A stretch of 64,000 bases of DNA from Candidatus Rokuibacteriota bacterium (GTDB lineage: Bacteria; JAUVQV01; DATDCY01): the NCBI GenBank assembly GCA_031406795.1, contig JANOHV010000262.1, forward strand, positions 723 through 64,722, read 5' to 3'. Within the stretch, counting starts at the first letter, position 1. Every line of letters starts with the position of its first letter. This document shows positions 11,644 to 64,000 of this stretch, piece by piece. The notes beneath the pieces were generated by a model, which was not told where the DNA came from, made no database searches, and saw only the letters and a program-made list of their open reading frames with translations. Both the position numbers and the translations under genes were made by a program.

Positions 11644-11712
11644 TCGCTGGCGAATGAACTCTTTCCGCATTGACGCAGTCAAAACAAGGATGGACATGAG
11701 ACCAGGTTCGAA

Positions 11713-13254
11713 ATGAGCCCCCGGCGCTGGCTTCTGCTGCGCCGTGTTTCGCAGCTGGTCTTTCTCGTCACGTTCGTCTTCCTGCTGCTGCGCACCGAAT
11801 ATCGCGGTTTCGACGTCATCCGCTACCCGGTCAACACCTTCTTCCAGCTCGACCCGCTGCTCGGTCTGGCTACCTTGATCGGACTGCGCGAGGCGATCGG
11901 GCACTTCTGGCCCGCGCTGCTGACCGTCGCGGTGACGCTTGCGCTCGGACGGGTCTTCTGCGGCTGGTTCTGCCCGCTGGGGGCGACGCTGGATCTGACG
12001 CGTCGCCTGCTCCGGACGCTCCCCGCGCCGCGCCGCCCGCTGCGCTGGGAGGGCCGCCGCGTGAAGTACTACCTGCTGGCCGCCGTGCTGGCCGCCGCGG
12101 TCTTCAACTGGCAAGCGGCGTGGCTGCTCGACCCCTTCAGCCTGCTCACGCGCGGACTCTCGGTCGGGGTCGTCCCGGCGGTCAACGGCGCAGTGAGCGC
12201 GGTCTTCAACAGCGTCTACTTCGGCCTGCCGGCGTTGCGCCCGCTCTCCGAGCCGGTGTTCGACCTGCTCAAGGCGCACGTGCTGACCTACGAGCAGCAG
12301 TACTTCCGCTGGGCCTGGCTCTCGCTCGGGGTGCTGCTCGCGGTGCTCGCGCTGGAGCGCTGGCAGCCGCGCTTCTGGTGCCGCAACCTCTGCCCGCTCG
12401 GCGGGCTGCTCTCGCTCTGCGCGCGAGGCCGGACGCTCTCCAGGAAGGTGAGCGGCGCCTGCACAGACTGCGGCACCTGCTGGGGCACCTGCCCGGTCGG
12501 CCTGATCGAGGATGGCACGCATCGCCGTTCACAGGCCGAGTGCACCGCCTGCATGCGCTGCCCGCCGGTTTGTCCCGAGGAAGCGATCGGCTTTGCGTGG
12601 GGGTATCGCCGCGCCGAGGCGCCGCTGGACATCGATCGCCGCCGCCTGATCGGCTCGGTCGTCGCGGGGATGGCGCTCGTGCCGTTGACGCGAATGCACC
12701 CGGCGCGCGCGACGGTGCCGCCCGAGCGGCTGCGGCCGCCGGGCGCGCGCCCGGAAGCGGACTTTCTCAACCGCTGTCTGCGCTGCGGGGCCTGCATGAA
12801 GGTCTGCATGCGCAATGCGATCCACCCGGCGCTGCACGAAGCGGGGTGGGAGGGCGTGTTCACCCCGATCATGGATTTCGAGATCGGCTACTGCGAGTAC
12901 AACTGCACGCTCTGCGGCCAGGTCTGCCCGTCGGAGGCGATCCGACGCCTGCCGCTGCAGCAGAAGCAGAAGTACGTCATCGGCACCGCGGTCTTCGACA
13001 AGGGCCGCTGTCTGCCGTGGGCCAATCACATCAACTGCCTGGTCTGCGAGGAGCACTGCCCGACCGGCGAGAAGGCGATCGTCTTCGAAGAGCAGGACGC
13101 CGTGGGGCGCGACGGCAAGACGATCCGCGTCAAACTCCCGATCGTGGTCCCCGAGCGCTGTATCGGCTGCGGGATCTGTCAGCAGAAATGCCCGGTCGAG
13201 GGGCGCGCTGCGGTCTTCGTCACTCCCCAGGGCGAGTCGCGGGCGGCCGGGTGA
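11713..13254 (+). CDS. membrane-bound polyferredoxin (NapH/MauN-like 4Fe-4S binding protein)
   Basis: ORF track 513 aa. N-terminal TM helices with a CGWFCPLG motif, then multiple CxxCxxCxxxCP ferredoxin motifs (CTDCGTCWGTCP, CTACMRCPPVCP, CLRCGACMKVCM, CTLCGQVCP, CLVCEEHCP, CIGCGICQQKCP). Confidence 0.85.
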   Translation: MSPRRWLLLRRVSQLVFLVTFVFLLLRTEYRGFDVIRYPVNTFFQLDPLLGLATLIGLREAIGHFWPALLTVAVTLALGRVFCGWFCPLGATLDLTRRLLRTLPAPRRPLRWEGRRVKYYLLAAVLAAAVFNWQAAWLLDPFSLLTRGLSVGVVPAVNGAVSAVFNSVYFGLPALRPLSEPVFDLLKAHVLTYEQQYFRWAWLSLGVLLAVLALERWQPRFWCRNLCPLGGLLSLCARGRTLSRKVSGACTDCGTCWGTCPVGLIEDGTHRRSQAECTACMRCPPVCPEEAIGFAWGYRRAEAPLDIDRRRLIGSVVAGMALVPLTRMHPARATVPPERLRPPGARPEADFLNRCLRCGACMKVCMRNAIHPALHEAGWEGVFTPIMDFEIGYCEYNCTLCGQVCPSEAIRRLPLQQKQKYVIGTAVFDKGRCLPWANHINCLVCEEHCPTGEKAIVFEEQDAVGRDGKTIRVKLPIVVPERCIGCGICQQKCPVEGRAAVFVTPQGESRAAG

Positions 13255-13277
13255 AGCGCCGTGAGGCAGGTTTCGGC

Positions 13278-14333
13278 ATGACACCGGGCGAAGGGATCCC
13301 CGGAACGCGGCTGCTGCTCGCGTGCGGCGTTCTGCTCGTCGGATTCGCCGCGTCGTGCTCCCGGATCGACGCGGATGCCGTCTATGCGGTGCGGCTCGCC
13401 GCGCCGCCGACCGACGCCGCGTGGGACCTGGCGATGCCGCGCCGCGTGAAGGCCGGCGGCGGCAGCGTGCACGGGCGGACCCCGGTGCTCGCCGGCCTCG
13501 AGCTGGACACCGACGCGGTGCACGGCGCGTCGGCCTCCTGCCACCACGGCCCGCCGGTCACCCACCCGACGCCGGTGCAGCTCCGGGCGTACCACACGGC
13601 TGCCGATCTCTATCTCGACGTGCGCTGGGAGGATGCCACGGCAGACCTCGTTCCCCGCTCCTGGAAGCGCACCGACGGCGGCTGGGAGATCGCGCCCGAC
13701 GACGAAGACGGCGTCGCGATCCTCTGGAGCAGCGGCGCCGGACGCTTCGGCTGCCAGGCGGCCTGCCACCAGAGCGATTTCGCCGTCCGCGGCGGCTCGC
13801 TGGTGGACGTGCGCTCGATGTTCCTCGCGGAGGAGGGGGTCCGGGAGGAGGCCTGGGTCTGGAAGCCGTCTCTCGGCGGCCGCCAGCTGCTGATTGACCG
13901 CACGGGTTTCGTGACCCCCGGCGGGGCGCCCTACAGCGCGGTGAATTCGCGGTTGGCTCACGACGCCGCGCTCGGGCCCGAGGCCAGGCGCGCCGGCATG
14001 TTCGGGAAGCAGGACGCACCGGTGACCGACGGGGAGGGGCGACCCGTCACGGCTGCCACGCGCACTGCCCCCGCTAGCCGCTGGGCCCCTGCGGGCGAGG
14101 AAAACCGCGTCACCGCCCGTGCCGAACGGTGGCGCCGGGGCTGGCGTGTGGTGTTCACCCGGCCTCTCGCCCCCGGGGACGGACTCGCGGCCTTCCGGCC
14201 CGGGGAGCGCCACCGGTTCGGCGTCGCGATCTTCGACGGCACCTCGGTGAACCACCACGTCGTCCGCGACACCCAGATCTTCGAGATCGTGGCGCCGCCT
14301 GCTCCGGGCGTGGCGTCGGAGGAGGCGGAGTGA
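13278..14333 (+). CDS. putative heme-binding lipoprotein (CxxCH motif; ethylbenzene-dehydrogenase-gamma/DOMON-like domain suspected)
   Basis: Embedded in track ORF 12120-14333; the real start is ATG 13278 (MTPGEGIPGTRLLLACGVLLVGFAASC). Lipobox-like AASC, and a CQAACH heme c motif. The rest is a hydrophilic periplasmic domain. Confidence 0.55.
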   Translation: MTPGEGIPGTRLLLACGVLLVGFAASCSRIDADAVYAVRLAAPPTDAAWDLAMPRRVKAGGGSVHGRTPVLAGLELDTDAVHGASASCHHGPPVTHPTPVQLRAYHTAADLYLDVRWEDATADLVPRSWKRTDGGWEIAPDDEDGVAILWSSGAGRFGCQAACHQSDFAVRGGSLVDVRSMFLAEEGVREEAWVWKPSLGGRQLLIDRTGFVTPGGAPYSAVNSRLAHDAALGPEARRAGMFGKQDAPVTDGEGRPVTAATRTAPASRWAPAGEENRVTARAERWRRGWRVVFTRPLAPGDGLAAFRPGERHRFGVAIFDGTSVNHHVVRDTQIFEIVAPPAPGVASEEAE

Positions 14334-15829
14334 CGGATCGTTTCCGACTCGCCGGCGCGCCGCTTGCATTCGCGCTGGCGACCTGCCTGACGCTCCACTC
14401 TGTGCCGTGCCGGGCGGCGTCCGATCCGCCGGTCCCGCTACCCATCCTCGCCGTCGACCCGCTGGTCCGCGGCACGGTCCTGGAAAACCACACCGACGCC
14501 CTCGCCCACTGGGTCGGGCGCGGCGATGCCCGCGCCGTTCTCCTTCATGTCGCCGCAGGCCACGGGATGAAGGTCCTCAGTGGCGAGAGCCTGTCCGCGC
14601 TCAAGGGACTTGCCGGACGCAAGGACCTTCCGGCACTGTCCCGGGCCGGGCGCGGCGGGAGCGAGGGGCTGTATGACGATGGGAACTTTATTCGAGCCGC
14701 CGCGGGGCTGGGGATCATCCGCGAGGTGGTCTGGATCGCCCCTATCCCGATGCCGGAGGGGAAGGACGCGGGGGTGCAGATGAAGAAGTTTCTGGGAAGA
14801 ACCGGTCTTTCGGCACTGGAGCAGGAAAGTTTCCACCCGGCGGCTGGCTGTTATCAGGGCAAAGCCGGGGGAATCCCTGTGAAAGTGTGCAGCCAGGAAC
14901 GGCTTCCCGCCCTCGGCGAAACCGTGCTGCTGAGCATCGGCGCCGACTACTTTCCGCACGCCGCCGGGCAGCGCGGGCTCACGCTGATCACCGAGATCCG
15001 GGCGCTCTTCAGGGCGCTGCGAAAAGCCCGTTACGCCGTCCGGGACACGGTGGTGGCCCACTCGGTGCTGGGAGGTTACCTCTCACCGGACCTGCGCTGG
15101 GTTGGCGAGTCGGTCCTGGAGGTGCTCAAAGATCCTTCGGTCACCCTGGCCGAGATGCCGCCTCAGCGGTGGAATGTCCTGCAGAAGCTCGCCGGCCTTG
15201 GCGCGGGAGGCGAGCCGGAGGGGGTCGAGATGCTGGGCCTCGCACTCTCGGCGCTGGAGGAGCAACCGCACGATCCCGCGTTGCTGCTGTACGCGGCGGA
15301 GGCCGCGGCCGGGCACACCGGCGCCGGCGACCGGGCGCTGGCGTACGCCGAGGAGGCCTGCCGGATCGACCGCGGCCGCTGTGTCGGCTTGCGCGAGGTC
15401 GGCCTCCGGTACCTGGAGCGCGGAGAGATCGAAACCGGACTGCGATTCATCGCCGCCGCGGAGAGCCACATGCCGGGGACGGAGTACGGCCAGCTCGACC
15501 TGGGAATTGCGCTGATGAAGGCGGGCAGAGACGAGGAGGCGGTGGCGGCTCTCGAGGTGCACCGGGCGCGGCACGGGAACTTCCCGTCCGGTTTTCTGAT
15601 TGGGGCTATCCATCAGTTCAAGGGCGATCGCGCGGCCGCGCGGCGCTCGTTCGATGGCGCCGTGGCCGCGATCGGGTCTGCCGACGGGCTCCAGGTCGTG
15701 CGGGGGGAGATCGCTCACGTCATTGCGACCGCCGCGGCGTTCTACCGCGAGGAAGGGCTGAAGCAGCAAGCCGAGCAGCTCGAGCGGGATCCGCGCCTGC
15801 GTCTTCCCTCACCGCGTGTCGGGCCCTAG
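14330..15829 (+). CDS. secreted hypothetical protein with C-terminal TPR-like repeats
   Basis: Track ORF 14129-15829. The N-terminal extension is low complexity, so I use GTG 14330, which overlaps the upstream TGA. From that start the protein begins VTDRFRLAGAPLAFALATCLTLHSVPCRAAS (signal peptide). The C-terminal region has TPR-like helices. Confidence 0.5.
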   Translation: MTDRFRLAGAPLAFALATCLTLHSVPCRAASDPPVPLPILAVDPLVRGTVLENHTDALAHWVGRGDARAVLLHVAAGHGMKVLSGESLSALKGLAGRKDLPALSRAGRGGSEGLYDDGNFIRAAAGLGIIREVVWIAPIPMPEGKDAGVQMKKFLGRTGLSALEQESFHPAAGCYQGKAGGIPVKVCSQERLPALGETVLLSIGADYFPHAAGQRGLTLITEIRALFRALRKARYAVRDTVVAHSVLGGYLSPDLRWVGESVLEVLKDPSVTLAEMPPQRWNVLQKLAGLGAGGEPEGVEMLGLALSALEEQPHDPALLLYAAEAAAGHTGAGDRALAYAEEACRIDRGRCVGLREVGLRYLERGEIETGLRFIAAAESHMPGTEYGQLDLGIALMKAGRDEEAVAALEVHRARHGNFPSGFLIGAIHQFKGDRAAARRSFDGAVAAIGSADGLQVVRGEIAHVIATAAAFYREEGLKQQAEQLERDPRLRLPSPRVGP

Positions 15830-15882
15830 CGGCGTGTGGTGCGCGGTATATACTGAGACGATGACCCGGGGGAGATGAAGAG

Positions 15883-16644
15883 ATGAGCATGGAAGGGATA
15901 CCGAAGCTGTCCGCGTCGGCCGCGCTGCTGCTCGCGGTTCTCGCTGCCACGGCGGCCTGCGGCGGGTCGAAGCAGGAGTCCGGCCAGGCGATGGTGCGGG
16001 GGAAGGCGCTGACGCCGCTGGCCGAGGCGTACGTCTCGGTCTACCGCGAGGGCATGGACCTGAAGGGCCCCCCCTACACGACCTCCCAGCCCACCGGGCC
16101 GGAGGGCGACTTCTCGATCTCGCTGCCGCCGGGGAAGTATTTCTTCGTGCTGCGCCAGCGGGCGGCGGGCGACAGCGTGGGCCCGGTGCGGACGGGGGAC
16201 CTTCACAGCGAGGTCGTCGGGCCGGTCACCGTGCGCGGCGGCGAGGACATCACCCGCGATCTGATCGCCGTGCGCAAGATCGGCGAGACGAAGGATCTCC
16301 CCTCCACGACCCCGGCGCCGACGACCACCGGGATCAGCGGGGTGATCACCGACCCCGACGGCAAGCCGGTCAAGGACGCGCGGCTCCACGCCTACACCTA
16401 CCCGCAGATGTCCGAGCGGCCGAAGTACGTCTCGGAGGCGACCGGTGCGGACGGGCGGTACGTGCTCTTCTTCCCCGAAGGGGGCACCTACTACCTGGCC
16501 GCGCGCAGCCGCTTCGGGGGGCCCCCGAAGATCGGCGAGTTGTACGGCCGCTACGACGACGGCACGGTCGAGCCCTCGGCGATCCACGTCAAGGACAACG
16601 AGATCATCGAGCATGTCGACATCACGGTCCACAAGATCTGGTAG
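15883..16644 (+). CDS. lipoprotein with two carboxypeptidase-regulatory-like (CarbopepD_reg) repeats
   Basis: ORF track 253 aa. Signal plus lipobox AACGGS. Repeats end in GKYFFVLRQRAAGD and GTYYLAARSRFGGPP, with a TGADGRY motif. An AT-rich TATATACT box lies about 25 nt upstream. Confidence 0.8.
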   Translation: MSMEGIPKLSASAALLLAVLAATAACGGSKQESGQAMVRGKALTPLAEAYVSVYREGMDLKGPPYTTSQPTGPEGDFSISLPPGKYFFVLRQRAAGDSVGPVRTGDLHSEVVGPVTVRGGEDITRDLIAVRKIGETKDLPSTTPAPTTTGISGVITDPDGKPVKDARLHAYTYPQMSERPKYVSEATGADGRYVLFFPEGGTYYLAARSRFGGPPKIGELYGRYDDGTVEPSAIHVKDNEIIEHVDITVHKIW

Positions 16645-16702
16645 ACCGGAGCCCACCTCTGATTCCCCCTTGGGCAAAGGGGGAGCAAGGGGGGGTGAAA
16701 AA

Positions 16703-17611
16703 ATGCGCCTTCTGCTCGTCTCGGCGTGCTGTGCGGTGCTCCTGCTCGCCGCGGGCGGTTGCGGCCGCGGTCTGTCCGACCGACCGCTCGCCGAGGTGAT
16801 CGCCGCTGCCGAGAAGGGTGGGGGACCGGCAATCCGCGAACTCGTCAACCGCTTCGGCGACCCGGACCCCGCGCTCGCCCAGCAGGCCTGGGAGGCCGCG
16901 GTGCAGATCGGCGCGCCGGTCGTCCCCGAGTGCATCCGCGCGCTCGCAGCCAGGGACCGGGTCATCGGCGAGCACGCCGCCGGGGCCCTCGGCGCGCTGC
17001 AGGCGAAGGAGGCGGTCGACGGGCTCGTTGCGGCGCTCGCCCGCCCCGACTTCCGGCGCTACGCGGCGGCCTGGGCGCTCGGCGAAATCGCCGACCCCCG
17101 CGCGATCCCGCCGCTGGTGCGCGCACTCGGCGACAGCGATCCCGAGACGCGCAAGTTCGCCACGCGTTCGCTGACCAAGTTCGGTCCGCTCGCCTCGGAC
17201 GCCCTGCTCGCGGCGCTGGCCGACCCGTCGGCGCCGGTGCGCCGGTACGCGGTGCGGGCGCTCGGCCAGATGCAGGAGCGCCGGGCGGTCGAGCCGCTGC
17301 TCGCACTCGAGGGGAAGGTCGACCTGGACGTGCTCCTCTGGGCCTTCGGGCGGCTCGGCGACCTGCGCGGGCTGCCGCTGCTCGAGCGAGAGGCCGGCGC
17401 GACCGACTGGAAGGTGCGCCTCGCCGCGGTGCAGGGCCTCGGGGACCTGGCGGATCCCGCATCGGTCCCGGCGTTGAAGAAGGCGCTCGCCGACCCGGAG
17501 TGGATCGTGCGCGAGTGGGCGGCGCGCGGGCTCGAGAGCGTGACCGGGGAGCGTTTCACCTACCGGGACCAGCATGGGCAGGACGTCGCCCCCTACAGCC
17601 TCTACCGCTAG
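16703..17611 (+). CDS. HEAT-repeat (PBS-lyase-like) lipoprotein
   Basis: Track ORF 16445-17611. Real start is ATG 16703 after GGGAGCAAGGGGGGTGA. MRLLLVSACCAVLLLAAGGCG lipoprotein signal, then repeated A(L/V)xALGxxxDPxAVxPLxxAL units. Confidence 0.8.
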   Translation: MRLLLVSACCAVLLLAAGGCGRGLSDRPLAEVIAAAEKGGGPAIRELVNRFGDPDPALAQQAWEAAVQIGAPVVPECIRALAARDRVIGEHAAGALGALQAKEAVDGLVAALARPDFRRYAAAWALGEIADPRAIPPLVRALGDSDPETRKFATRSLTKFGPLASDALLAALADPSAPVRRYAVRALGQMQERRAVEPLLALEGKVDLDVLLWAFGRLGDLRGLPLLEREAGATDWKVRLAAVQGLGDLADPASVPALKKALADPEWIVREWAARGLESVTGERFTYRDQHGQDVAPYSLYR

Positions 17612-19193
17612 CGCCGCCGCGCAGCTGCCCACGGCCGCGGCGGGGCGGCTCGTGCGCCTCTGGCGCTCGCCGGCCTTCCCGGCGGTTCTCCAGGCGGCGG
17701 CGCTCGCCGTGCTGATCGCGCTGATCGCGGCCGGCTGGGGCCGCACCGGGTTGCCCGGCAGCGGCGCCGCGGTGCCCCTGCTCTACACGAACCTCGCCGC
17801 TCTCGGCTTCTGGACGCTCTGGCTGATGAGCCTGATCCTGCTGCTGCCCGGCGTCGGGCGTCTCTGGTGCACGGTCTGCCCCGTCGGTTGGTGCAACGAC
17901 CTCGCCTCGCGCGCCGGCGCGAAGGCCGACTACCCGCGGCGGCTGCAGCACCTGGGCCTGATGGCGCTGCTGCTGTTCGGCTTCAACGCCGCCGCGGAAC
18001 TCTGGGCGCTGAACCGCTCGCCGGATGCGACCGCGAAGCTGCTGGCTCTCGCGCTCGCCGCAGCGGTCGTCGCCGGGCTGGCATTTCGCGGGCGCGTCTT
18101 CTGCCGCTACTGGTGCCCGGTCGGCGGGATGATCGCGCTGACCTCGCGCCTCGCGCCGGTGGAGGTCGCCGTCCGCGACCTCGGCGTCTGCCGCCGTTGC
18201 GAGACCAAGGCCTGCTTCTTCGGCTCGACCCGCTGGCACCGGCTCTCCTGGGCGGCTTGGCACACCGTCTTCCCCCACAAACGGCCGGGGTGTCCCGCGT
18301 ACCTCTTCCCCCCCGAGGCGGCCCAGGGCCCGCACTGCCTGATGTGCACCGGCTGCATCAAGAACTGCCCGCACGACAACGTCCGCTGGGGTTTGCGGCC
18401 CTTCGCGTCGGGGCTCTGGCCCGCCGCGGCGCGCGACCGGGGCGAGGCGCTGCTGCTGGTCGTGATGACGGGGCTGGTCTTCCACCGGCTGGCGCGGTTC
18501 TGGGGCGGGCTGCGCGCCGTCGTGGAGTGGCCGACGGAACTGCTGGCGGCCGCCGTCCCGTCGCTGCCGACGCTCGCGCTCAAGGGAGCGAACCTGCTCT
18601 GCGGCTTCGTGCTCTGGCCGCTCGCGTTCTACCTCGTCCTCGGGGTCGTCGCCCGGGCGGCCGCGCAGATCAGCGTCGCGCCGTGGCCCGCGCCGGGGGA
18701 GGAGCCGGACGGGTTGCTCTACGATGTCGCCGAGGTCGACCGCGAGCAGCGCGGACGCGAGAGCGGCTGGGCGGCGCGGCGACAGAGCGTCTGGGGCTTC
18801 ATCGCGGTCTACGGGTATGCGTTCGTCCCGCTCGTCGCCGGGGCCTACGCGGCGTTCGCTCTCGTCAAACTCAACGAGAAGGCGGGCTACCTGCCGCTGG
18901 CGCTCGCCGATCCCGCCGGCGTGAAGACCTCGGTCGCGATCAACCAGCTGCGCCTGCTCTCCGGCCCGGAGAGCATCGTGGCGCTCGCGGTGGCGCGCTG
19001 GGGCGCGGTGGCGCTCGCCGCGGCCGGGCTCGCGATCGGGCTCTGGTCCGCCGGGCGCATCGGCGCGCGGGCCTACGGCGAGGCCACGCCGGCGGCGCGT
19101 CGCGGCGCCGCGGTCTTTCGTGTCGGGCTGCTCGCGCTTGGCACGCTGCTGCTGCTCTGCTTGCGGGCCTGGCTGTTCCGCGGCGGGCGCTGA
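17574..19193 (+). CDS. membrane polyferredoxin, NapH/NosR-C-terminal-like 4Fe-4S binding protein
   Basis: ORF track 539 aa. CTVCPVGWC and CRYWCPVGG motifs within TM helices, and CLMCTGCIKNCP ferredoxin motif. The start may instead be GTG 17652 (VRLWRSPAFP), because 17574 overlaps the upstream gene by 38 nt. Confidence 0.75.
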   Translation: MGRTSPPTASTASAAAQLPTAAAGRLVRLWRSPAFPAVLQAAALAVLIALIAAGWGRTGLPGSGAAVPLLYTNLAALGFWTLWLMSLILLLPGVGRLWCTVCPVGWCNDLASRAGAKADYPRRLQHLGLMALLLFGFNAAAELWALNRSPDATAKLLALALAAAVVAGLAFRGRVFCRYWCPVGGMIALTSRLAPVEVAVRDLGVCRRCETKACFFGSTRWHRLSWAAWHTVFPHKRPGCPAYLFPPEAAQGPHCLMCTGCIKNCPHDNVRWGLRPFASGLWPAAARDRGEALLLVVMTGLVFHRLARFWGGLRAVVEWPTELLAAAVPSLPTLALKGANLLCGFVLWPLAFYLVLGVVARAAAQISVAPWPAPGEEPDGLLYDVAEVDREQRGRESGWAARRQSVWGFIAVYGYAFVPLVAGAYAAFALVKLNEKAGYLPLALADPAGVKTSVAINQLRLLSGPESIVALAVARWGAVALAAAGLAIGLWSAGRIGARAYGEATPAARRGAAVFRVGLLALGTLLLLCLRAWLFRGGR

Positions 19194-19215
19194 CGATGGG
19201 GGAGGTGGGCCTGCC

Positions 19216-20349
19216 ATGAGGTGCGGCGTGCTGTCGGGGACGGCTGTCCGGGCGGCGCTCTTCTGCCTGCTCTATGCGGCCGCCGGCCCGCGTGAGGCGC
19301 TCGGACAGGCGGCGGCCGAGAAGGCGCCCGGGACCGCGCGTCTCTTCGGAAAGATCACCCGGGACACGCGCGGCGTGGCCGGTGCCCGCGTGCTGGCGTA
19401 CGCCTCGTTCGCCGATCTGCTCGCCTTTCGCAGCGCCGCCGTCTCGGCGCCTTCCGGCGCGGACGGCAGCTATCAGCTTTCGCTCCCGGCGGGAACCTAC
19501 CAGCTCGTGGCCCGCGCGCAGGACGGGCCGCCCGACGGGCCGGTGCCGGTCGGGGGACTCCACGCATTCCACGGCTCCAACCCGTTCACCCTGTCCCCGG
19601 ACAGTTCGACCGGAGTCAATTTTTCGCTGGCTCGCAAGACGGCCGAGCCGGTCGTCAGGACGGCGGCCGACCCGGGTTCGGGGACGCTCGGCGGCGTCGT
19701 GACCTCGGAGGGCGCCGGAGTCGCCGGGGTCCAGGTCAAGCTCTACCTCGACCCGGAGAGCGCGTTTCGGGGCATGGGCTACGCCGCGGCCCCGCCGACC
19801 GACGAGCGCGGCGTGTTCAGCTTCGATTACCTGCCGCAGAGCGCTTACTACGTGGTCGCCCGCAAGCGGGCGGGGGGAGGGCCGGGTCCGCTCGTCGAAG
19901 GCGATTTCTACGGCTACTACCCCGACAACCCGGTGCAGGTGCGGGGCGGGACCGCCGTCGAGATCGCGCTGGAGCTCGTGACCCGGGGCCGCGAGGTCGG
20001 GACCGCCGACGGACGGCCCCACCCGTCGGAGACCCGCATCGCGGGCCGCATCACGGATGCCGCGGGGGGGGTCGTTCGGGGCGTCTACGCCTTCGCGTAC
20101 GAGGAGAAGGTCATGGCCCACAAGAAACCGGCGTTCATCTCGCCGGAGGTCGACGACCAGGGCCGCTATGTCATCCACCTGTCGCGGCCGGGCACCTTCT
20201 ACGTCGGCGCGCGCTCGGCCTACGGCGACTCCCCCGGCCGGGGGGAGTGGTACGGGCGCTATGACGGGACGAGCGATCACGGGGTGACGGTCGCGGCGGG
20301 CGCGAGTGCGGAGGGGATCGACATCCGTGTCGAGCGCATTCTGCCGTGA
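19216..20349 (+). CDS. secreted protein with three carboxypeptidase-regulatory-like repeats
   Basis: Track ORF 19120-20349. ATG 19216 is preceded by GGAGGTGGG. Signal peptide, then repeats ending TYQLVARAQDG, AYYVVARKRAGGGP and TFYVGARSAYGD. Confidence 0.8.
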   Translation: MRCGVLSGTAVRAALFCLLYAAAGPREALGQAAAEKAPGTARLFGKITRDTRGVAGARVLAYASFADLLAFRSAAVSAPSGADGSYQLSLPAGTYQLVARAQDGPPDGPVPVGGLHAFHGSNPFTLSPDSSTGVNFSLARKTAEPVVRTAADPGSGTLGGVVTSEGAGVAGVQVKLYLDPESAFRGMGYAAAPPTDERGVFSFDYLPQSAYYVVARKRAGGGPGPLVEGDFYGYYPDNPVQVRGGTAVEIALELVTRGREVGTADGRPHPSETRIAGRITDAAGGVVRGVYAFAYEEKVMAHKKPAFISPEVDDQGRYVIHLSRPGTFYVGARSAYGDSPGRGEWYGRYDGTSDHGVTVAAGASAEGIDIRVERILP

Positions 20350-20356
20350 GCGGCTG

Positions 20357-21208
20357 ATGCGCGCCGCGCGCCGGGGCCTGTTGCCGGCCGTCCTCGCGGC
20401 CGGTCTGCTTCCCGCGGCGGCCGCCGCCGGGGAGCTCGTCGTCCGCGGCGGCGTCGCGGCGGACGAGACCTGGGACGGAGCGGTGACCGTCGTCGGCCAG
20501 GTCGTCGTCAGAAAAGGGGTGACCCTGACGATCCGGCCGGGGACGACGGTGCGCTTCGCGTGGAGCGACGAGGACGGCAACGGCATCGGCGACGGGGAAC
20601 TCGCCGTCGAGGGGCGCCTGGTCGCCCGCGGCACCCGGGAGCAGCCGATCACGTTCACGTCCGCGCGGGAGCAGCCGGCGCCCAAGGACTGGACCTACGT
20701 GATCATCAGCACGAGCCGCGAGAGCCTCATGGAACGCTGCATCTTCGAGTACGGCTTCACCGGGCTGCAGGTGCACCTGTCGTCGGCAACGGTGCGCAAT
20801 TGCCGCTTCCGACGCAACTTCGAGGCGCTGCGGTTTTCGACCTCCGAGATCCTCGTGGAACGCAACGAGATCGCGGAGAACACCTACGGCATACGCTACG
20901 AGTCCCGGGGCTCGAGCGGCAGTATCACCCGCAACACCATCTCCCAGAACGAGTACGGCTTCTTCCCGGTCGTCAAGAACGCGGCAGGGGTGCGGATTTT
21001 CGAGAACAACGTCGTCAACCGCGAGTACAATGTCAAGATGGGCGCCGAGCAGCGAGAGGACCTCGATTTCAGCGCAAACTGGTGGGGCACCACCGTCCCG
21101 GAGGAGATCGCGGCAGGATTCTTCGACGGGCGGCGGGAAGCGTCGATCGGCCGGGTGCTTTTCGAGCCGTTCCTGGACAAGGCGGTCGTGCCGTGCGGAC
21201 CCTTCTGA
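20357..21208 (+). CDS. right-handed parallel beta-helix repeat protein (NosD-like), secreted
   Basis: Track ORF 20306-21208; internal ATG 20357 (MRAARRGLLPAVLAAGLLPAAAAAG signal). Repeated ..N.I..N..G motifs (VRNCRFRRNFEALRF, VERNEIAENTYGIRY, ITRNTISQNEYGFF, FENNVVNREYNV). Its closest paralog in this window is 57163-58005. Confidence 0.8.
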   Translation: MRAARRGLLPAVLAAGLLPAAAAAGELVVRGGVAADETWDGAVTVVGQVVVRKGVTLTIRPGTTVRFAWSDEDGNGIGDGELAVEGRLVARGTREQPITFTSAREQPAPKDWTYVIISTSRESLMERCIFEYGFTGLQVHLSSATVRNCRFRRNFEALRFSTSEILVERNEIAENTYGIRYESRGSSGSITRNTISQNEYGFFPVVKNAAGVRIFENNVVNREYNVKMGAEQREDLDFSANWWGTTVPEEIAAGFFDGRREASIGRVLFEPFLDKAVVPCGPF

Positions 21209-22296
21209 TAGGTCTGGCAGTTTCCGTGGCGGTTGCGCTCTGGCAGCCGGCAGCTGCCGTGTCTGCGACCCACCCCGCCGGCCCGCTGCCGGCCCCGCTG
21301 CCCGGGGTCGTCGGACCCGGGGTCGAGGGACTGGCGGCGCTGCGCGGCGAGTTCGTCCCCGGCGTGGTCGTGCTCGCCTTCACCGAGCCGGGACCGGGGC
21401 CGAAGGCCGTCCCGCTCGCGGTGTCGGGAGAGACCGACGAGAGCGGCCGCTACCGGCTTGCCCTCAAGCCGGGCAGCTACTACCTCGTCGCGGTGAAGTC
21501 TGCCGGGGCGCCGTGGCCGTTTTCGGGAAAGAAGGGCGACCTGTTCTGCTACTACCTCGGCAATCCGATCGTCGTCGAGCCCGGGAAGATGACGCGGGTC
21601 GGCTTCAACATGGTCCGGGTCGGCGAGATGCAGGCGCCGATCGCGGGCGAGGGCGCCGGGATCGCCGGACAGGTGCTCTTCGAGGACAAGCCGCTCGGCC
21701 GCGCCTACGTCCACGTGTACAGCGACGCCGGCACGAATTTCCGCGGGATGGGCCTGGCGTCCGTCCCCACCGGCGAAGATGGGCGCTTCCGGATCAAGCT
21801 GCCGCCGGGCAGCTATTACGTGCTCGCGAGGAAGCGCCAGGGCGGCGGGATGTACGGCCCGCCGGGCAAGGACGACTACATCGGTTATCTGCCGGGAAAT
21901 CCCGTCACGGTGCGCCCGGGGGTGTTCTCGCCGCTGCGGTTGGAGGCCACGACCCGGGTCGATTTGCTCGAGGAGATCTGGTTCACCGAAGGGGCGAGCG
22001 CGGGGTGGTTCGAAGGGAGCGTGACCGATCCCGCGGGGAAGCCGGCCGCCGGTCTGTACGTGCTGTTCTACACCGACGCGGCGATGACCGGGACGCCGGC
22101 TTTCGTCGCCGGCCCGACCGACGCGAAGGGGCACTTCAAAGTCCGCGCCGCCGCGGGAAAGTTCCACCTGCTCGCCCGCTCGAACCTCGGGGGGCCGCTC
22201 GAGGCCGGGGAGTGGTTCGGCAAAGCCATCCTTGCCGGCGGCACCGCACCGGCGGAGGGGATCCGGATCGGCGTTTCGCGCTTCACCGGCAAGTGA
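21193..22296 (+). CDS. secreted protein with three carboxypeptidase-regulatory-like repeats
   Basis: In-frame part of track ORF 20560-22296. GTG 21193 (VRTLLIGLAVSVAVALW signal) overlaps the upstream gene by 16 nt. Repeats end in SYYLVAVKSAGAP, SYYVLARKRQGGG and KFHLLARSNLGGP. Confidence 0.75.
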   Translation: MRTLLIGLAVSVAVALWQPAAAVSATHPAGPLPAPLPGVVGPGVEGLAALRGEFVPGVVVLAFTEPGPGPKAVPLAVSGETDESGRYRLALKPGSYYLVAVKSAGAPWPFSGKKGDLFCYYLGNPIVVEPGKMTRVGFNMVRVGEMQAPIAGEGAGIAGQVLFEDKPLGRAYVHVYSDAGTNFRGMGLASVPTGEDGRFRIKLPPGSYYVLARKRQGGGMYGPPGKDDYIGYLPGNPVTVRPGVFSPLRLEATTRVDLLEEIWFTEGASAGWFEGSVTDPAGKPAAGLYVLFYTDAAMTGTPAFVAGPTDAKGHFKVRAAAGKFHLLARSNLGGPLEAGEWFGKAILAGGTAPAEGIRIGVSRFTGK

Positions 22297-22317
22297 ACCA
22301 CCGATGATGGTTCGCCC

Positions 22318-23370
22318 GTGAAGCACGGCCGCGGTGCCCTCGCGGCGCTGGGAATGATCGTTGCCTTCTCTGCCGGTCTCGCGGCGGGGCGGCTGATCGA
22401 GTTCGGGGAGACGCCTCAGAACGGCGAGGATTTCCAGATTCGGGAAGGCCGGCAGGGATACACGAACCCGCTGCTGGAGTGCGAGATCGCCAACGAGCGG
22501 CTCGTCGCGCCGCTGCGGCCGTTCGGCAGCCGGCTGAGGGAGCTGGTAGCGTCTCTCGAGCAGGACGAGCGGACCGCCAGGGTGGCCGTCTACTTCCGCG
22601 ACCTGAACAACGGGCCCTGGGTCGGGCATCGCGAGAAGCGGCCCCACGCACCCGCCAGCCTGGCCAAGGTGCCGATCGTGATTGCCGGCTTCCGCCAGGC
22701 CGAAATCGATCCGGGCTTCCTCTCCCGCGGGATGGTGTACGAAGGGAGCGAATCGGAGCGGGAGCCCGGTTTCCTGAACCCGGAATCGAATCTGCAGCGG
22801 GGAAGGACCTACACCGTCAACGAGTTGCTGCTGCAGATCGCCAAGTACTCGGACAACGCCGCTGCGCAGTTGCTGCAGCAGGCGATTCCCCCGCGGCTGC
22901 TGCAGAAGGTCTATTTCGATCTCGGCATCGACCCGGAGCGCCTGAAGGACCCGCAGTTCGCGCTCTCGCCGAAAGAGTACGGCGCGTTCTTCCGGGTCCT
23001 GTACAACGCGAGCTACCTGAGCCGGGAGTTTTCCGAGCGGGCCCTGAGCTACTTCGACCAGAGCACGTTCGAACTCGGTCTTGTCGCCGGGGTCCCGGCG
23101 GGGCTTCCCGTGGCGCACAAGTTCGGTGTCTGGGAGGATCCGGCGCCCGGTTCGCGCCCCCCGCTTCAACTCCACGACTGCGGCATCGTCTATCACCCGC
23201 GTCGCCCCTACCTGCTGTGCGTGATGACAACAGGGGAAAACTACGTGCAGATGGCGTCGGCCATAGCCGCCGTCTCCCGCTTCGTCTACGGGGAGGTCGA
23301 CAGCGATCCGCGGCGGCCCGGCGAGAGGGCCGGGCTGCCGGACGGTGCGGACACCGTTGGTGGTCGGTAA
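22318..23370 (+). CDS. serine hydrolase, class A beta-lactamase-like
   Basis: ORF track 350 aa. SxxK (ASLAK), SDN (YSDNAAA) and K(T/F)G-like (HKFGVW) motifs in the canonical order. Confidence 0.75.
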   Translation: MKHGRGALAALGMIVAFSAGLAAGRLIEFGETPQNGEDFQIREGRQGYTNPLLECEIANERLVAPLRPFGSRLRELVASLEQDERTARVAVYFRDLNNGPWVGHREKRPHAPASLAKVPIVIAGFRQAEIDPGFLSRGMVYEGSESEREPGFLNPESNLQRGRTYTVNELLLQIAKYSDNAAAQLLQQAIPPRLLQKVYFDLGIDPERLKDPQFALSPKEYGAFFRVLYNASYLSREFSERALSYFDQSTFELGLVAGVPAGLPVAHKFGVWEDPAPGSRPPLQLHDCGIVYHPRRPYLLCVMTTGENYVQMASAIAAVSRFVYGEVDSDPRRPGERAGLPDGADTVGGR

Positions 23371-25206: not shown

Positions 25207-25292
25207 CCGGGGATTCTCGACGCGGGGGCCGGGGTTGTCAACGACACCCGTGGCCACTGAGGGGACCAGGCGGGGTGCGTCGGTGGAGGGGC

Positions 25293-25321
25293 TTGACAAT
25301 GATGCGGATTGGCGAAAAGAT
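25293..25321 (+). promoter_or_regulatory. candidate sigma70-like promoter (perfect TTGACA, 17-nt spacer, weak -10 AAAGAT) upstream of the tiny ORF
   Basis: TTGACA at 25293-25298 in a locally lower-GC intergenic island, followed 17 nt later by AAAGAT. Confidence 0.3.
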
Positions 25322-25429: not shown

Positions 25430-25532
25430 GCCTGGTTTCGGTCGCGTTTTCCGGGCCGGCCCCCCGCGGTGTGCCGGCTCGTCTCACCTCATGAATTCTT
25501 CCGAGGCCCTCTCGGATGCGGAGGGCGCCATC

Positions 25533-31365: not shown

Positions 31366-31393
31366 CAGTTCTTCAAGGAAGGCACGGGAGACC

Positions 31394-54362: not shown

Positions 54363-54472
54363 TGTAACCGCCGCCCCCCGGAGGCGTACTATCTATTGTG
54401 AAATTGACCCGCGGGATTCCGCGGTGGTATGGTGTTTCCGGGGTAGTCAGGCTGGCACGAAAGGAGCAGAGC

Positions 54473-63990: not shown

Positions 63991-64000
63991 GAACCGGATC

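What the first reader, a model, noticed from the sequence alone, without database searches (positions are those of the whole stretch)
15883..22296. Recurring cassette: CarbopepD-like lipoprotein / NosD-like beta-helix lipoprotein / CarbopepD-like protein, next to polyferredoxins (copy 1)
The order CarbopepD(15883) - HEAT lipoprotein - NapH-like polyferredoxin(17574) - CarbopepD(19216) - beta-helix(20357) - CarbopepD(21193) is mirrored at 56087-63990. The second copy has CarbopepD, beta-helix, a spermidine-synthase-like membrane protein, CarbopepD, a binding protein, then a big beta-helix. NosD-like beta-helix proteins plus NosR/NapH-like polyferredoxins normally belong to periplasmic metallo-cofactor assembly (N2O reductase). 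Here they are paired with multi-repeat lipoproteins carrying a conserved G(T/S)YYL(A/V)AR terminal motif and no NosZ/F/Y/L, suggesting an undescribed periplasmic assembly or modification system.
Basis: partly seen in the sequence, partly recalled or inferred. Interest (0 to 1): 0.7.

Follow-up and report, generated by a model that had tools for sequence, protein, structure and literature searches.

The report
Conserved envelope operon: beta-helix/transthyretin-like pairs plus polyferredoxin
The flagged genes are real, and together with a second locus 34 kb away they form one undescribed set of exported proteins, conserved across several phyla of anaerobic sediment and groundwater bacteria, that is tied to a membrane electron-transfer protein and is not nitrous-oxide reductase maturation despite its "NosD" labels.

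Summary
Window 15883-22296 encodes CarboxypepD_reg-repeat protein (CPD) / HEAT lipoprotein / Fer4_5 membrane polyferredoxin / CPD / 283-aa beta-helix (BH) / CPD. Window 56087-64000 holds CPD / BH / 809-aa polytopic protein / CPD / OpuAC-like protein / large BH.

The five CPDs are old paralogs (26-35% identity) with no DNA similarity, so these are not two cassette copies. In Desulfuromonadales-type and other deltaproteobacterial MAGs, each window paralog has its own ortholog in a single operon: FG-GAP-CPD-BH-polytopic-CPD-(BH)-CPD-(BH)-CPD-BH-OpuAC-DUF362-polyferredoxin. Nitrospirota carry most of these families in one co-directional array.

- **CPD-BH pairing:** the two are adjacent in 66 of 82 evaluable cases, overlap start/stop, and are fused into one protein in Geobacter.
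- **Redox partners:** the DUF362 partner carries Tat signals. The upstream polyferredoxin has the NapH-NapG fusion architecture with an internal twin-arginine motif (the dual Sec/Tat type of Tooke et al. 2017).
- **Not Nos:** NosD membership fails (19-20 bits against a cutoff of 300), and there is no NosZ/F/Y/L.

Best reading, mostly inferred: a quinol-linked periplasmic redox system whose CPD-BH pairs bind or scaffold an unknown substrate. I found no literature on it. Interest 0.6.

The parts
10705..11643 (+). DUF362 protein with a twin-arginine-type signal peptide; the likely periplasmic partner of the polyferredoxin
   Evidence: PF04015 at 173.5 bits. Homologs in related loci carry canonical Tat motifs such as DRRTFLKG and NRRNFLKT. 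Invariant K-P-N, K190, H192, K202 and H216, with no four-Cys set.
11713..13254 (+). Membrane polyferredoxin with NapH-NapG fusion architecture and an internal twin-arginine motif (DIDRRRLIGSVVAGMALVPL) ahead of a C-terminal multi-cluster domain
   Evidence: Fer4_5 x2 plus several Fer4 families. Two CX3CP motifs, an internal RR followed by a hydrophobic stretch, and further Cys-cluster motifs on both sides of it; the RR is conserved in most homologs from related loci. The architecture matches the dual Sec/Tat 'PFD' of Tooke et al. 2017 (PMC5449189).
13251..14333 (+). Exported EB_dh (ethylbenzene-dehydrogenase gamma-like, haem-b type) domain protein; specific to this lineage
   Evidence: PF09459 at 69.5 bits. 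No homolog in the other loci.
14330..15829 (+). Exported protein with a weak TPR match; lineage-specific
   Evidence: TPR_19 at E 4.7e-4, below the cutoff. No homolog in the other loci.
15883..16644 (+). CPD_A: two-repeat CarboxypepD_reg lipoprotein
   Evidence: PF13620 at 41 bits. Paralogous to the other CPDs at E 1e-24 to 1e-27. The CPD_A-HEAT-Fer4_5 order recurs in L023.
16703..17611 (+). HEAT-repeat lipoprotein
   Evidence: HEAT_2 at E 2e-37. Lipobox LAAGGC read directly. Homologs in 7 related loci.
17574..19193 (+). Second NapH-type (Fer4_5) polytopic membrane protein, with an extra C-terminal membrane domain
   Evidence: PF12801 at 30.7 bits. TIGR02163 scores only 25 bits against a cutoff of 213. 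About 8 hydrophobic segments. Orthologs in L058 and L023.
19216..20349 (+). CPD_B: three-repeat transthyretin-like exported protein; the partner of the beta-helix protein
20357..21208 (+). BHs1: single-module right-handed beta-helix protein (NosD/Beta_helix Pfam), signal peptide, invariant H140 and R159
21193..22296 (+). CPD_C: three-repeat CPD; its start overlaps the BH stop by 16 nt
   Evidence: PF13620 at 60.2 bits. 33% identical to CPD_B. It has its own ortholog position in single-operon loci.
22318..23370 (+). Beta-lactamase2-family serine-hydrolase-like protein; kept downstream only in the close relative
   Evidence: PF13354 at 103 bits. Same position in L058.
25491..28811 (+). Accessory module: weak OpuAC-like exported protein, peptidase-U32 protein, a 263-aa protein with no family match, and an ArsP_1 permease
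   Evidence: Most of this module lies next to CPD/BH genes in L058, L013 and L002.
54398..55996 (+). FG-GAP / ASPIC-UnbV beta-propeller protein with a signal peptide (probable start 54473)
   Evidence: FG-GAP_3 at 141.5 bits, UnbV_ASPIC at 29 bits. Homologs sit beside the CPD/BH genes in the Nitrospirota loci and in L014/L016.
56087..57166 (+). CPD_D: three-repeat CPD lipoprotein
   Evidence: PF13620 at 33.5 bits. Paralog E-values 1e-24 to 1e-40. Overlaps the BHs2 start by 4 nt.
57163..58005 (+). BHs2: paralogous single-module beta-helix lipoprotein
   Evidence: NosD at 35 bits, Beta_helix at 34 bits. 36% identical to BHs1, with H140 and R159 conserved.
57987..60416 (+). 809-aa polytopic membrane protein with a central Rossmann-like domain ('spermidine-synthase-like' only through its orthologs)
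   Evidence: No significant family or PDB match. About 15 hydrophobic segments. Orthologs score 350-650 bits in 10 loci and carry a weak PF01564 hit.
60557..61618 (+). CPD_E: three-repeat CPD lipoprotein
   Evidence: PF13620 at 59.6 bits, DUF4198 at 49.4 bits. Its ortholog follows the polytopic protein in single-operon loci.
61689..62312 (+). Short (207 aa) OpuAC-like exported protein with an invariant A-C-V-G-K straight after the signal peptide
   Evidence: PF04069 at 50.7 bits. Present in 32 of 41 loci of at least 13 kb. Cys27 is invariant in 37 of 37 sequences.
62336..64000 (+). Large multi-module beta-helix protein, incomplete at the window end
   Evidence: Beta_helix at 48.8 bits, NosD at 30.7 bits. 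816-850-aa counterparts in the Desulfobulbaceae and Geobacter loci.

Best explanation
Region 15883-22296, its upstream genes (10705-15829) and the locus at 54398-64000 belong to one conserved envelope system.

Components:
- three to five paralogous exported proteins built from transthyretin-like CarboxypepD_reg domains (CPD);
- two or three right-handed beta-helix proteins (BH);
- a short OpuAC-like protein;
- a large polytopic membrane protein;
- often an FG-GAP propeller and a HEAT lipoprotein;
- a redox pair: a Tat-exported DUF362 protein and a membrane polyferredoxin with NapH-NapG fusion architecture.

Shown here:
- the gene content, the paralogy and the conservation across phyla;
- each CPD gene sits directly in front of a BH gene with overlapping or near-overlapping stop/start, and the two are fused into one polypeptide in Geobacter, so CPD and BH very probably act as a physical pair;
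- DUF362 carries Tat signals;
- the polyferredoxin has an internal twin-arginine motif ahead of its C-terminal multi-cluster domain.

Inferred mechanism:
- The polyferredoxin works like NapGH/NosGH. It exchanges electrons with the quinone pool and passes them through its periplasmic iron-sulfur domain to the periplasmic DUF362 enzyme. In this lineage the EB_dh haem protein would also sit on that path.
- The CPD-BH pairs are the exported binding or scaffold subunits. They would present a substrate, possibly anionic, polymeric or envelope-bound, on the face that I inferred from the predicted strand register to carry the family-specific invariant His140 and Arg159.
- The OpuAC-like protein, with its invariant N-terminal Cys, would carry or deliver a small ligand.

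The substrate is unknown. The system works somewhat like the NosD + NosGH part of clade II nos clusters, but it is not a Nos system.
For: - **Families and order:**
- **Paralogy:**
- **Conservation:** 54 genome loci from Nitrospirota, Desulfobulbia, Geobacter/Desulfuromonadales, Deferrisomatales and others, plus a Candidatus Methylomirabilia relative. CPD lies within 10 kb in 54 of 57 loci. 66 of 82 BH ORFs with both flanks present have a CPD directly adjacent on the same strand.
- **One system:** single-operon versions carry a separate ortholog for each window paralog.
- **Reciprocal link:** three of three DUF362 homologs chosen only for contig length lie in the operon polytopic-CPD-BH-CPD-BH-CPD-DUF3467-BH-OpuAC-DUF362-polyferredoxin. 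DUF362 and the polyferredoxin occur together in 16 of 41 loci of at least 13 kb and almost never apart.
- **Fusion:** 670-730-aa ORFs in L049, L050, L051 and L055 match CPD_B at E 1e-32 to 1e-38 in the N-terminal part and BHs1 at about E 1e-57 in the C-terminal part. P0442 joins one CPD repeat to a BH module.
- **Tat signals on DUF362 homologs:**
- **Polyferredoxin:** the internal RR motif and cluster motifs match the experimentally tested dual Sec/Tat NapH-NapG fusion (PMC5449189).
- **Family-specific surface:** H140 and R159 are invariant in the small-BH family. They are not conserved in 1069 modules of giant multi-BH proteins, where the structural residues are kept.
Against: - No experiment and no characterised homolog exists for CPD, BH, DUF362 or the OpuAC-like protein, so the electron flow, its direction and the substrate are all inference.
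- DUF362 and the polyferredoxin are absent within 10 kb in 24-25 of 41 long loci, including nearly all Desulfobulbia and Geobacter-type loci. The CPD-BH pair can therefore exist without a nearby redox module, and the two may be separable units.
- The loci were found with one narrow peptide pattern, and three of them were picked through DUF362, so the frequencies are not unbiased.
- DUF362 has no four-Cys motif, and its cofactor, if any, is unknown.
- The BH unit also occurs as a repeated module in giant proteins, which fits a purely structural or adhesive role.
- The position of H140/R159 on the helix surface was read from the predicted strand pattern, not from coordinates.
Confidence: 0.45

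Rival explanations
1. Nos-like periplasmic metal or sulfur cofactor assembly. The beta-helix protein acts like NosD as a docking platform. A CPD lipoprotein acts like NosL as a metal chaperone. The polyferredoxin acts like NosR/NosGH (or like the cupric reductase CcoG) to keep the metal or the target reduced. Together they would mature an unidentified periplasmic metalloenzyme.
For: - PF05048 scores above its cutoff.
- NosD together with NapGH-like NosGH is the arrangement of clade II nos clusters (own knowledge).
- CPD repeats hit DUF4198, and weakly the NikL-type Ni/Co transporter subunit model.
- A HupE_UreJ gene lies next to L003.
Against: - TIGR04247 scores 19-20 bits against a cutoff of 300.
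- No NosF/NosY-type ABC partner, NosL or NosZ is present in the window or in seven annotated related loci.
- The CPD family has no conserved Cys, and no His or Met set conserved across paralogs.
- Three BH and three to five CPD paralogs per system, and BH modules repeated up to 28 times in giant proteins, do not look like a dedicated chaperone.
Confidence: 0.12
2. Periplasmic polysaccharide or envelope-glycan modification. The beta-helix proteins would be AlgG-like epimerases or lyases acting on an acidic polymer. The CPD domains would be carbohydrate-binding modules. The FG-GAP propeller would bind glycan, and DUF362 (LarA clan) would be a hydroxy-acid or sugar-acid epimerase.
For: - An invariant His and an invariant Arg appear to sit on successive rungs. 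This recalls the catalytic His/Arg of AlgG (own knowledge, not tested).
- DUF362 shares a Pfam clan with the LarA 2-hydroxy-acid racemases/epimerases (PMC11770544).
- The window is rich in glycosylation genes: GT-C/TPR proteins, YfhO, GtrA, GT2 and sugar-nucleotide enzymes.
Against: - No pectate-lyase or epimerase Pfam family is hit by the window BH proteins.
- The AlgG-type DPHD motif (own knowledge) is absent from the sequences.
- No glycosyltransferase or sugar gene family recurs among the conserved neighbours in other phyla. The recurring neighbours are OpuAC-like, DUF362, polyferredoxin, FG-GAP and the polytopic protein.
- This reading gives no role to a quinol-dehydrogenase-type polyferredoxin.
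Confidence: 0.15
3. Structural surface or periplasmic scaffold/adhesin proteins with no catalytic role. CPD-BH pairs would be building blocks of an envelope layer or fibre. The redox genes would be neighbours for regulatory or historical reasons only.
For: - The BH unit is a module repeated 5-28 times in proteins of 2000-7000 aa, some with FlgD_ig-type domains.
- CPD folds resemble pilin, adhesin and S-layer Ig-like domains. One source names a homolog 'MSCRAMM family protein'.
- Many loci lack the redox pair nearby.
- Giant multihaem cytochromes or roughly 2450-aa repeat proteins are neighbours in 16 and 10 loci.
Against: - The small-BH family has its own invariant polar residues (H140, R159) that the giant-protein modules lack.
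- The gene order with DUF362-polyferredoxin is kept across phyla with overlapping reading frames.
- Three of three blind DUF362 picks fall in the operon.
Confidence: 0.15
4. A specific version of the redox model: periplasmic sulfur or polysulfide handling. The polyferredoxin would play the part of PsrC+PsrB, DUF362 that of the catalytic subunit, and the OpuAC-like protein with its single invariant Cys that of a Sud-like sulfur carrier. The His/Arg stripe of BH and the Arg-rich CPD loops would bind the anionic sulfur chain.
For: - The mature N-terminus of the OpuAC-like protein has an invariant Cys, 37 of 37.
- A YeeE/Sulf_transp-like membrane protein (weak, E 6e-5) is a neighbour in 7 loci.
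- ArsP_1 permease and thioredoxin-fold genes are neighbours.
- The host groups are largely sulfur- or metal-cycling anaerobes.
- NosD has been linked to sulfur supply for the CuZ site (own knowledge).
Against: All of this is circumstantial. No known sulfur enzyme family is present. The Sulf_transp hit is below its cutoff. The Cys could simply be a lipidation site. The host distribution may reflect only habitat.
Confidence: 0.08

Closest known systems
NosD of the NosDFY-NosL machinery, and the NosGH quinol dehydrogenase of clade II nos clusters
   Different: - It fails the NosD family model (19-20 bits against 300).
- It has 283 aa against about 400-440.
- There is no NosF/NosY ABC transporter, NosL or NosZ.
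- The partner lipoproteins are three-domain transthyretin-like proteins.
- Several paralogous pairs occur per system, and CPD and BH are fused in Geobacter.
Dual Sec/Tat polytopic polyferredoxin 'PFD' (Q1NSB0 of delta proteobacterium MLMS-1; Tooke et al. 2017, eLife, PMC5449189), a NapH-NapG fusion related to the NapGH quinol dehydrogenase
   Same: Gene 11713-13254 has NapH-type CX3CP motifs, cytoplasmic cluster motifs, an internal twin-arginine motif directly ahead of a weakly hydrophobic last transmembrane segment, and a C-terminal NapG-like multi-cluster domain. The same host groups, deltaproteobacteria and Nitrospirae, are listed in the paper.
   Different: That paper studied only membrane insertion. 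It gave neither the function nor the genomic partners of the protein. Direct alignment to Q1NSB0 could not be run here. The second polyferredoxin (17574-19193) lacks the NapG-like domain and has an extra membrane domain instead.
Periplasmic beta-helix polysaccharide epimerases and lyases (AlgG, AlgE A-modules, PL6/PL9-type lyases)
   Different: No hit to their Pfam families. No DPHD motif. No conserved polysaccharide-synthesis neighbours across phyla. A conserved link to Tat-DUF362 and a polyferredoxin.
CarboxypepD_reg / transthyretin-like domain proteins, including DUF4198 periplasmic components of Ni/Co uptake systems
   Different: The DUF4198 matches cover only the last third or so of that profile. 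The three-repeat architecture has its own conserved R-x-R...G-P...G-D-x-x-G-Y...N-P loops. The obligatory beta-helix partner is not a feature of those families.

Membership tests
NosD (nitrous oxide reductase maturation protein, TIGR04247) | Score at or above the curated cutoff of the NosD_copper_fam model (300 bits) | tested here: not met
   19.1 bits (20357-21208) and 20.0 bits (57163-58005).
NosD (nitrous oxide reductase maturation protein, TIGR04247) | Encoded with the NosF ATPase and NosY permease, and with NosZ/NosL | tested here: not met
   No ABC transporter, NosZ or NosL family among the window genes or in the annotated loci L001-L003 and L058-L061.
NosD (nitrous oxide reductase maturation protein, TIGR04247) | Periplasmic right-handed parallel beta-helix with PbH1 repeats (Pfam PF05048) | tested here: met
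NapH / NosH quinol dehydrogenase membrane subunit (TIGR02163) | Score at or above the family cutoff (213 bits) | tested here: not met
   25.1 bits for 17574-19193. The PolyFd gene 11713-13254 was not scanned against NCBIfam.
NapH / NosH quinol dehydrogenase membrane subunit (TIGR02163) | Fer4_5 domain with two CX3CP motifs in a polytopic membrane protein | tested here: met
   PF12801 at 30.7 bits (17574-19193) and 47.2 bits (11713-13254). CGWFCP and CRNLCP at residues 83 and 223 of 11713-13254. CTVCPVG and CRYWCPVG are read in 17574-19193.
Dual Sec/Tat polytopic polyferredoxin (NapH-NapG fusion; Tooke et al. 2017) | A conserved twin-arginine motif directly ahead of the last, weakly hydrophobic transmembrane segment, followed by a C-terminal multi-[4Fe-4S] domain | tested here: met
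   RRR at residues 309-311, followed by LIGSVVAGMALVPL and then several Cys-cluster motifs. The equivalent RR plus hydrophobic stretch is present in most homologs from related loci. Family description.
Dual Sec/Tat polytopic polyferredoxin (NapH-NapG fusion; Tooke et al. 2017) | Sequence homology to Q1NSB0, and Tat-dependent export of the C-terminal domain | not testable with these tools
Export needs an experiment.
CarboxypepD_reg (PF13620) | Score above the gathering cutoff (32.3 bits) and a transthyretin-like beta-sandwich fold | tested here: met
   Only the generic Beta_helix and NosD models are hit by the window BH proteins. PF12708 appears only in giant multi-module relatives.
OpuAC substrate-binding domain (PF04069) | Score above the cutoff (21.2 bits) and a full two-lobe binding protein encoded with an ABC transporter | tested here: inconclusive
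   50.7 bits. However, the protein has only 207 aa, is matched in two short stretches, has no transporter genes nearby, and has no obvious conserved Trp box.
Spermidine/spermine synthase (PF01564) | Significant match of the central domain to the family model | tested here: not met
   No hit for 57987-60416 in Pfam, NCBIfam or PDB. The central domain alone gives only Methyltransf_23 at E 0.21. Orthologs carry a precomputed 'weak' PF01564 hit.

The most novel reading that the evidence does not exclude
A previously undescribed quinol-linked periplasmic enzyme complex, widespread in uncultured anaerobes. Its catalytic subunit would be a Tat-exported member of the LarA clan (DUF362), possibly carrying a pre-assembled organometallic cofactor. 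Its substrate would be captured by dedicated CPD/beta-helix heterodimers. This would amount to a new kind of respiratory or envelope-modifying module, built around a NosD-like fold but unrelated to N2O reduction.
Probability: 0.3. Interest if true: 0.8.

Novelty: new variant of a known kind. Interest (0 to 1): 0.6.

Why it matters
- **A large uncharacterised system.** It is a 10-12 gene, mostly exported system conserved across Methylomirabilota-like, Nitrospirota, Desulfobulbia, Geobacter/Desulfuromonadales and Deferrisomatales MAGs. About 1760 50%-identity cluster representatives match the BH profile at E <= 1e-30 (this count includes multi-module giant proteins). None of its core proteins (CPD, BH, DUF362, OpuAC-like, polytopic protein) has a known function.
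- **A context for an orphan protein.** It gives a genomic setting, and therefore a testable role, to the NapH-NapG fusion polyferredoxin whose unusual Sec/Tat biogenesis was studied without knowing what it does. It does the same for Tat-exported DUF362.
- **A practical annotation problem.** These proteins are annotated as 'NosD domain-containing' or 'periplasmic copper-binding protein (NosD)'. Metagenome surveys that count nosD-like genes could therefore wrongly infer N2O-reduction capacity.

Tried and rejected
- **Recent duplication of a cassette:** rejected. There is no blastn match between 15883-22296 and 56087-64000, and the paralogs are only 26-36% identical.
- **Nos membership:** rejected on the NCBIfam score and on context (and the context calls).
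- **PDB sequence searches:** nothing for the 809-aa protein, for DUF362, or for BHs1 as a single sequence.
- **Pfam on sub-domains** of the 809-aa protein and on the unannotated window genes: nothing significant.
- **Literature searches:** DUF362/NosD/polyferredoxin, Pfam-name combinations, cable bacteria + NosD, and AlgG catalytic residues. The only relevant papers were Tooke et al. 2017 and the LarA-clan statement.
- **Look-up of the window's own BH protein** in the contig index failed, so the source record was not identified. The closest named relative is Candidatus Methylomirabilia, 80% identity.
- **Single-linkage clustering of stop-to-stop ORFs** merged CPD and BH because of overlapping frames in GC-rich DNA. 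I used it only for neighbour families.
- **Metal-site idea for CPD:** dropped. Only Gly, Asn, Pro, Leu and Arg are invariant, and the D-H and M-x-H positions are not kept in the paralogs.

Full report
**1. What is in the sequence**

The window is about 70% G+C, so plain ORF lists are full of shadow frames. I called genes by codon-position G+C and checked them with Pfam and NCBIfam.

The flagged region is the distal part of an uninterrupted co-directional array, 10705-23370, with gaps of at most 70 nt and several overlaps:

| Coordinates | Product |
|---|---|
| 10705-11643 | DUF362 |
| 11713-13254 | membrane polyferredoxin (Fer4_5 plus several Fer4 families) |
| 13251-14333 | EB_dh haem-type domain protein |
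| 14330-15829 | protein with a weak TPR match |
| 15883-16644 | CPD_A, two CarboxypepD_reg repeats, lipobox |
| 16703-17611 | HEAT lipoprotein |
| 17574-19193 | Fer4_5 polytopic protein |
| 19216-20349 | CPD_B, three repeats |
| 20357-21208 | BHs1, Beta_helix/NosD |
| 21193-22296 | CPD_C, three repeats |
| 22318-23370 | Beta-lactamase2-like protein |

The second locus runs as follows:

| Coordinates | Product |
|---|---|
| 54398-55996 | FG-GAP/ASPIC propeller |
| 56087-57166 | CPD_D |
| 57163-58005 | BHs2 |
| 57987-60416 | 809-aa polytopic protein |
| 60557-61618 | CPD_E |
| 61689-62312 | OpuAC-like protein |
| 62336 to window end | large beta-helix protein, cut by the window end |

No NosZ, NosF, NosY or NosL family occurs anywhere in the window.

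**2. Is the repetition real?**

Yes, at the protein level. The five CPD proteins align to each other over full length at 26-35% identity and E 1e-24 to 1e-40. CPD_A corresponds to repeats 2-3 of the others. BHs1 and BHs2 are 36% identical.

There is no nucleotide similarity between the two regions, so these are old paralogs rather than a recent duplication.

The 'terminal motif' is real but degenerate. The literal G(T/S)YYL(A/V)AR occurs once. The family consensus of the last repeat is GGTYYxGARSxYGDSPxxGEWYGRYDGTxDHSV.

**3. Conservation elsewhere**

The BHs1 family has 118 close relatives in the large protein collection. The nearest named one is from Candidatus Methylomirabilia (80% identity), and source names include 'NosD domain-containing' and 'parallel beta-helix repeat protein'.

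A scan of one genome per species returned 54 loci, all but one from MAGs. They come from Nitrospirota, Desulfobulbia, Geobacter/Desulfuromonadales, Deferrisomatales and others.

Searching ORFs of all loci with the window proteins gave these counts:
- CPD in 54 of 57 loci; the exceptions are very short contigs or fusions.
- 66 of 82 BH ORFs with both flanks available have a CPD directly adjacent on the same strand.
- Among loci of at least 13 kb: OpuAC-like in 32 of 41, DUF362 plus polyferredoxin in 16 of 41 (almost never one without the other), FG-GAP in 10, the polytopic protein in 10, ArsP_1 in 9, HEAT in 7.

These frequencies come from a narrow search pattern and include three loci that were chosen through DUF362.

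**4. One system, not two copies**

Several deltaproteobacterial, Desulfuromonadales and Deferrisomatales MAGs (L014, L016, L021, L023, L059-L061) have a single operon:

(FG-GAP)-CPD_D-like-BHs2-like-polytopic-CPD_E-like-(BH)-CPD_C-like-(BH)-CPD_B-like-BHs1-like-OpuAC-DUF362-polyferredoxin.

L023 adds CPD_A-HEAT-Fer4_5 on the other strand. Each window paralog finds its own best match at a fixed position (gene calls).

Nitrospirota have an 18-kb co-directional array that contains most of the same families. It lacks the polytopic protein and has two DUF362 genes.

The window therefore carries the two halves of one system, 34 kb apart.

The link also holds from the other side. Three DUF362 homologs (55-60% identity), picked only for contig length, all lie in this operon.

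**5. CPD and BH act together**

- In the window the CPD_B stop lies 7 nt before the BHs1 start. BHs1 overlaps CPD_C by 16 nt, CPD_D overlaps BHs2 by 4 nt, and BHs2 overlaps the next gene by 19 nt.
- In four Geobacter/Desulfuromonadaceae loci, one 670-730-aa reading frame holds a complete three-repeat CPD (E 1e-32 to 1e-38 to CPD_B) followed by a BH module (about E 1e-57 to BHs1).
- P0442 joins one CPD repeat to a BH module.

Adjacency, coupling and fusion together make a physical CPD-BH pair very likely.

**6. The proteins themselves**

*BHs1.*
- It models confidently (pLDDT 91.5) as a short right-handed beta-helix.
- By sequence profile the only solved relative is NosD (E 5e-5), and only in the PbH1 repeats.
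- A full-library profile search shows that the roughly 240-residue unit is a module. There are 1762 representatives at E <= 1e-30, many of them proteins of 2000-7000 aa with up to 28 copies.
- In 1069 such modules the structural positions are kept (W112, the Asn ladder, NWWG, D257). H140 and R159, invariant in the small-BH family, are replaced mostly by Tyr, Asn and Asp.
- From the predicted strand register, H140 and R159 appear to lie on successive rungs of one sheet. I take this as a candidate family-specific binding surface.

*OpuAC-like protein.* It is short and has an invariant A-C-V-G-K immediately after its signal peptide, in 37 of 37 sequences.

**7. The redox partners**

*DUF362.* Homologs in these loci start with canonical Tat motifs. 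The window copy has a less canonical RR-containing signal. The family has no four-Cys set, but it has invariant Lys and His residues. It belongs to the same Pfam clan as the LarA racemases (PMC11770544).

*Polyferredoxin 11713-13254.* In order, it has:
- NapH-type CX3CP motifs;
- cytoplasmic cluster motifs;
- an internal RRR followed by a weakly hydrophobic segment;
- further cluster motifs.

The internal RR is conserved in most homologs from related loci. This is the architecture of the polytopic polyferredoxin of delta proteobacterium MLMS-1. Tooke et al. showed that its last transmembrane segment and C-terminal domain are handled by Tat. They describe it as a NapH-NapG fusion related to the NapGH quinol dehydrogenase (PMC5449189).

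In the single-operon loci DUF362 and this protein overlap by 4 nt.

**8. Most likely mechanism**

Shown:
- a conserved set of exported proteins;
- CPD-BH pairing;
- Tat export signals on DUF362 and inside the polyferredoxin;
- tight coupling of these two genes, and of the OpuAC-like gene to them.

Inferred:
- The polyferredoxin connects the quinone pool with the periplasm, as NapGH and NosGH do.
- DUF362 is its periplasmic redox partner.
- The CPD-BH pairs bind or scaffold the substrate.
- The OpuAC-like protein carries a small ligand.

The substrate is unknown, and I put 0.45 on this general model.

Rivals:
- a Nos-like metal/sulfur assembly system (0.12);
- polysaccharide or glycan modification (0.15);
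- purely structural surface proteins beside unrelated redox genes (0.15);
- a sulfur/polysulfide-specific version of the redox model (0.08).

The main weakness is that most Desulfobulbia and Geobacter-type loci have CPD-BH and the OpuAC-like gene but no DUF362 or polyferredoxin within 10 kb.

**9. Comparison with known systems and novelty**

The system works most like the NosD + NosGH part of clade II nos clusters, but it fails NosD membership:
- 19-20 bits against a cutoff of 300;
- no NosF, NosY, NosL or NosZ.

It shares a fold with AlgG-type epimerases but not their families or motif. The polyferredoxin fits a described but functionally orphan family.

No paper on the cluster was found. I rate it a new variant of a known kind: a periplasmic NapGH-type electron-transfer module with a NosD-fold accessory. 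There is a 0.3 chance that it is a truly new enzyme complex.

Interest is 0.6. The system is widespread, coherent and testable. It also has a practical consequence, because 'NosD' annotations of these genes can mislead N2O-cycle surveys. Its function is still open, however, and conserved operons of unknown function are not rare.

Noticed in passing
window 61689-62312 and 36 homologs in related loci: The short OpuAC-like protein has an invariant A-C-V-G-K directly after the signal peptide (Cys in 37 of 37). The position before the Cys is always Ala, but the -2 position is W/H/E/Q/N/Y/F, which makes a poor lipobox. The Cys sits right before the first beta-strand. It could be a lipidation site, or a functional N-terminal Cys acting as a ligand or a persulfide carrier.
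   Followed up: partly
L049:8702-10822, L050:8807-10822, L051:8136-10193, L055:8636-10825: In Geobacter/Desulfuromonadaceae MAGs the three-repeat CPD and the beta-helix module are fused into one 670-730-aa reading frame. Proteins of 668-692 aa with the BH module at their C-terminal end, a layout that fits this fusion type, are common in the 50%-identity representative library.
   Followed up: yes
proteins P0341-P0487: The roughly 240-residue beta-helix unit of BHs1 occurs 5-28 times in tandem in giant proteins of 2000-7000 aa, some with FlgD_ig domains. In these modules the surface His/Arg of the small family is replaced, largely by Tyr.
   Followed up: partly
window 25491-28811: A four-gene module: a weak OpuAC-like exported protein, a peptidase-U32 protein, a 263-aa protein with no family match (by eye it resembles the U32 N-terminal region), and an ArsP_1 permease. 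Most of it recurs next to CPD/BH genes in L058, L013 and L002. The two middle proteins might form a UbiU/UbiV-like pair of U32-type enzymes.
   Followed up: partly
window 2214-3689(-), 6780-8483, 8480-10609, 23431-25299(-), 41669-43510, 46340-48241(-), 49354-51858: An unusual density of large polytopic and/or TPR proteins that look like GT-C-type glycosyltransferases: TMTC DUF1736+TPR, a weak PMT_2 hit, and YfhO. They sit together with GtrA (53913-54362), GT2 (40838-41641), an FkbM methyltransferase and RmlD. This suggests periplasmic protein or glycan glycosylation in this organism. These genes are not conserved next to CPD/BH in other phyla.
   Followed up: no
window 29885-40856: A sugar-nucleotide or modified-sugar biosynthesis block: two cytidylyltransferase-like genes (one fused to a PfkB kinase), SIS, radical SAM/SPASM, NAD-epimerase/dehydratase, APH-type kinase, split transketolase, a methyltransferase and a Zn-ADH. 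A B12-binding radical SAM gene lies at 43531-45024(-).
   Followed up: no
window 13251-14333: An EB_dh (ethylbenzene dehydrogenase gamma-like, haem-b type) domain protein with an N-terminal hydrophobic segment is inserted between the polyferredoxin and the CPD genes. It has no counterpart in the other loci. In the close relative L058 a multihaem cytochrome c lies inside the cluster instead.
   Followed up: partly
L015, L020, L022, L024, L028, L031-L036, L038, L039, L041, L042, L044, L052, L054: In Desulfobulbia-type loci the CPD-BH pair sits in a different conserved context: a 195-aa protein with no Pfam match, then CPD-BH, a Glu/Leu-dehydrogenase-like gene, two adenylosuccinate-lyase-like genes, an OpuAC-like gene and a PhnD-like binding protein. 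Giant multihaem cytochromes lie next door in 16 loci overall, and roughly 2450-aa repeat proteins in 10 mostly Geobacter/Nitrospirota loci.
   Followed up: partly
window 10705-11643 and 103 homologs: The DUF362 proteins of this cluster have no Fe-S-type Cys set. They do have invariant K81-P-N, K190, H192, K202 and H216. Together with Tat export and the shared Pfam clan with LarA, this raises the question of whether they carry a pre-assembled cofactor.
   Followed up: partly
window 3920-6487(-): An 855-aa protein that combines a GDSL/SGNH lipase-acylhydrolase domain with TPR repeats.
   Followed up: no
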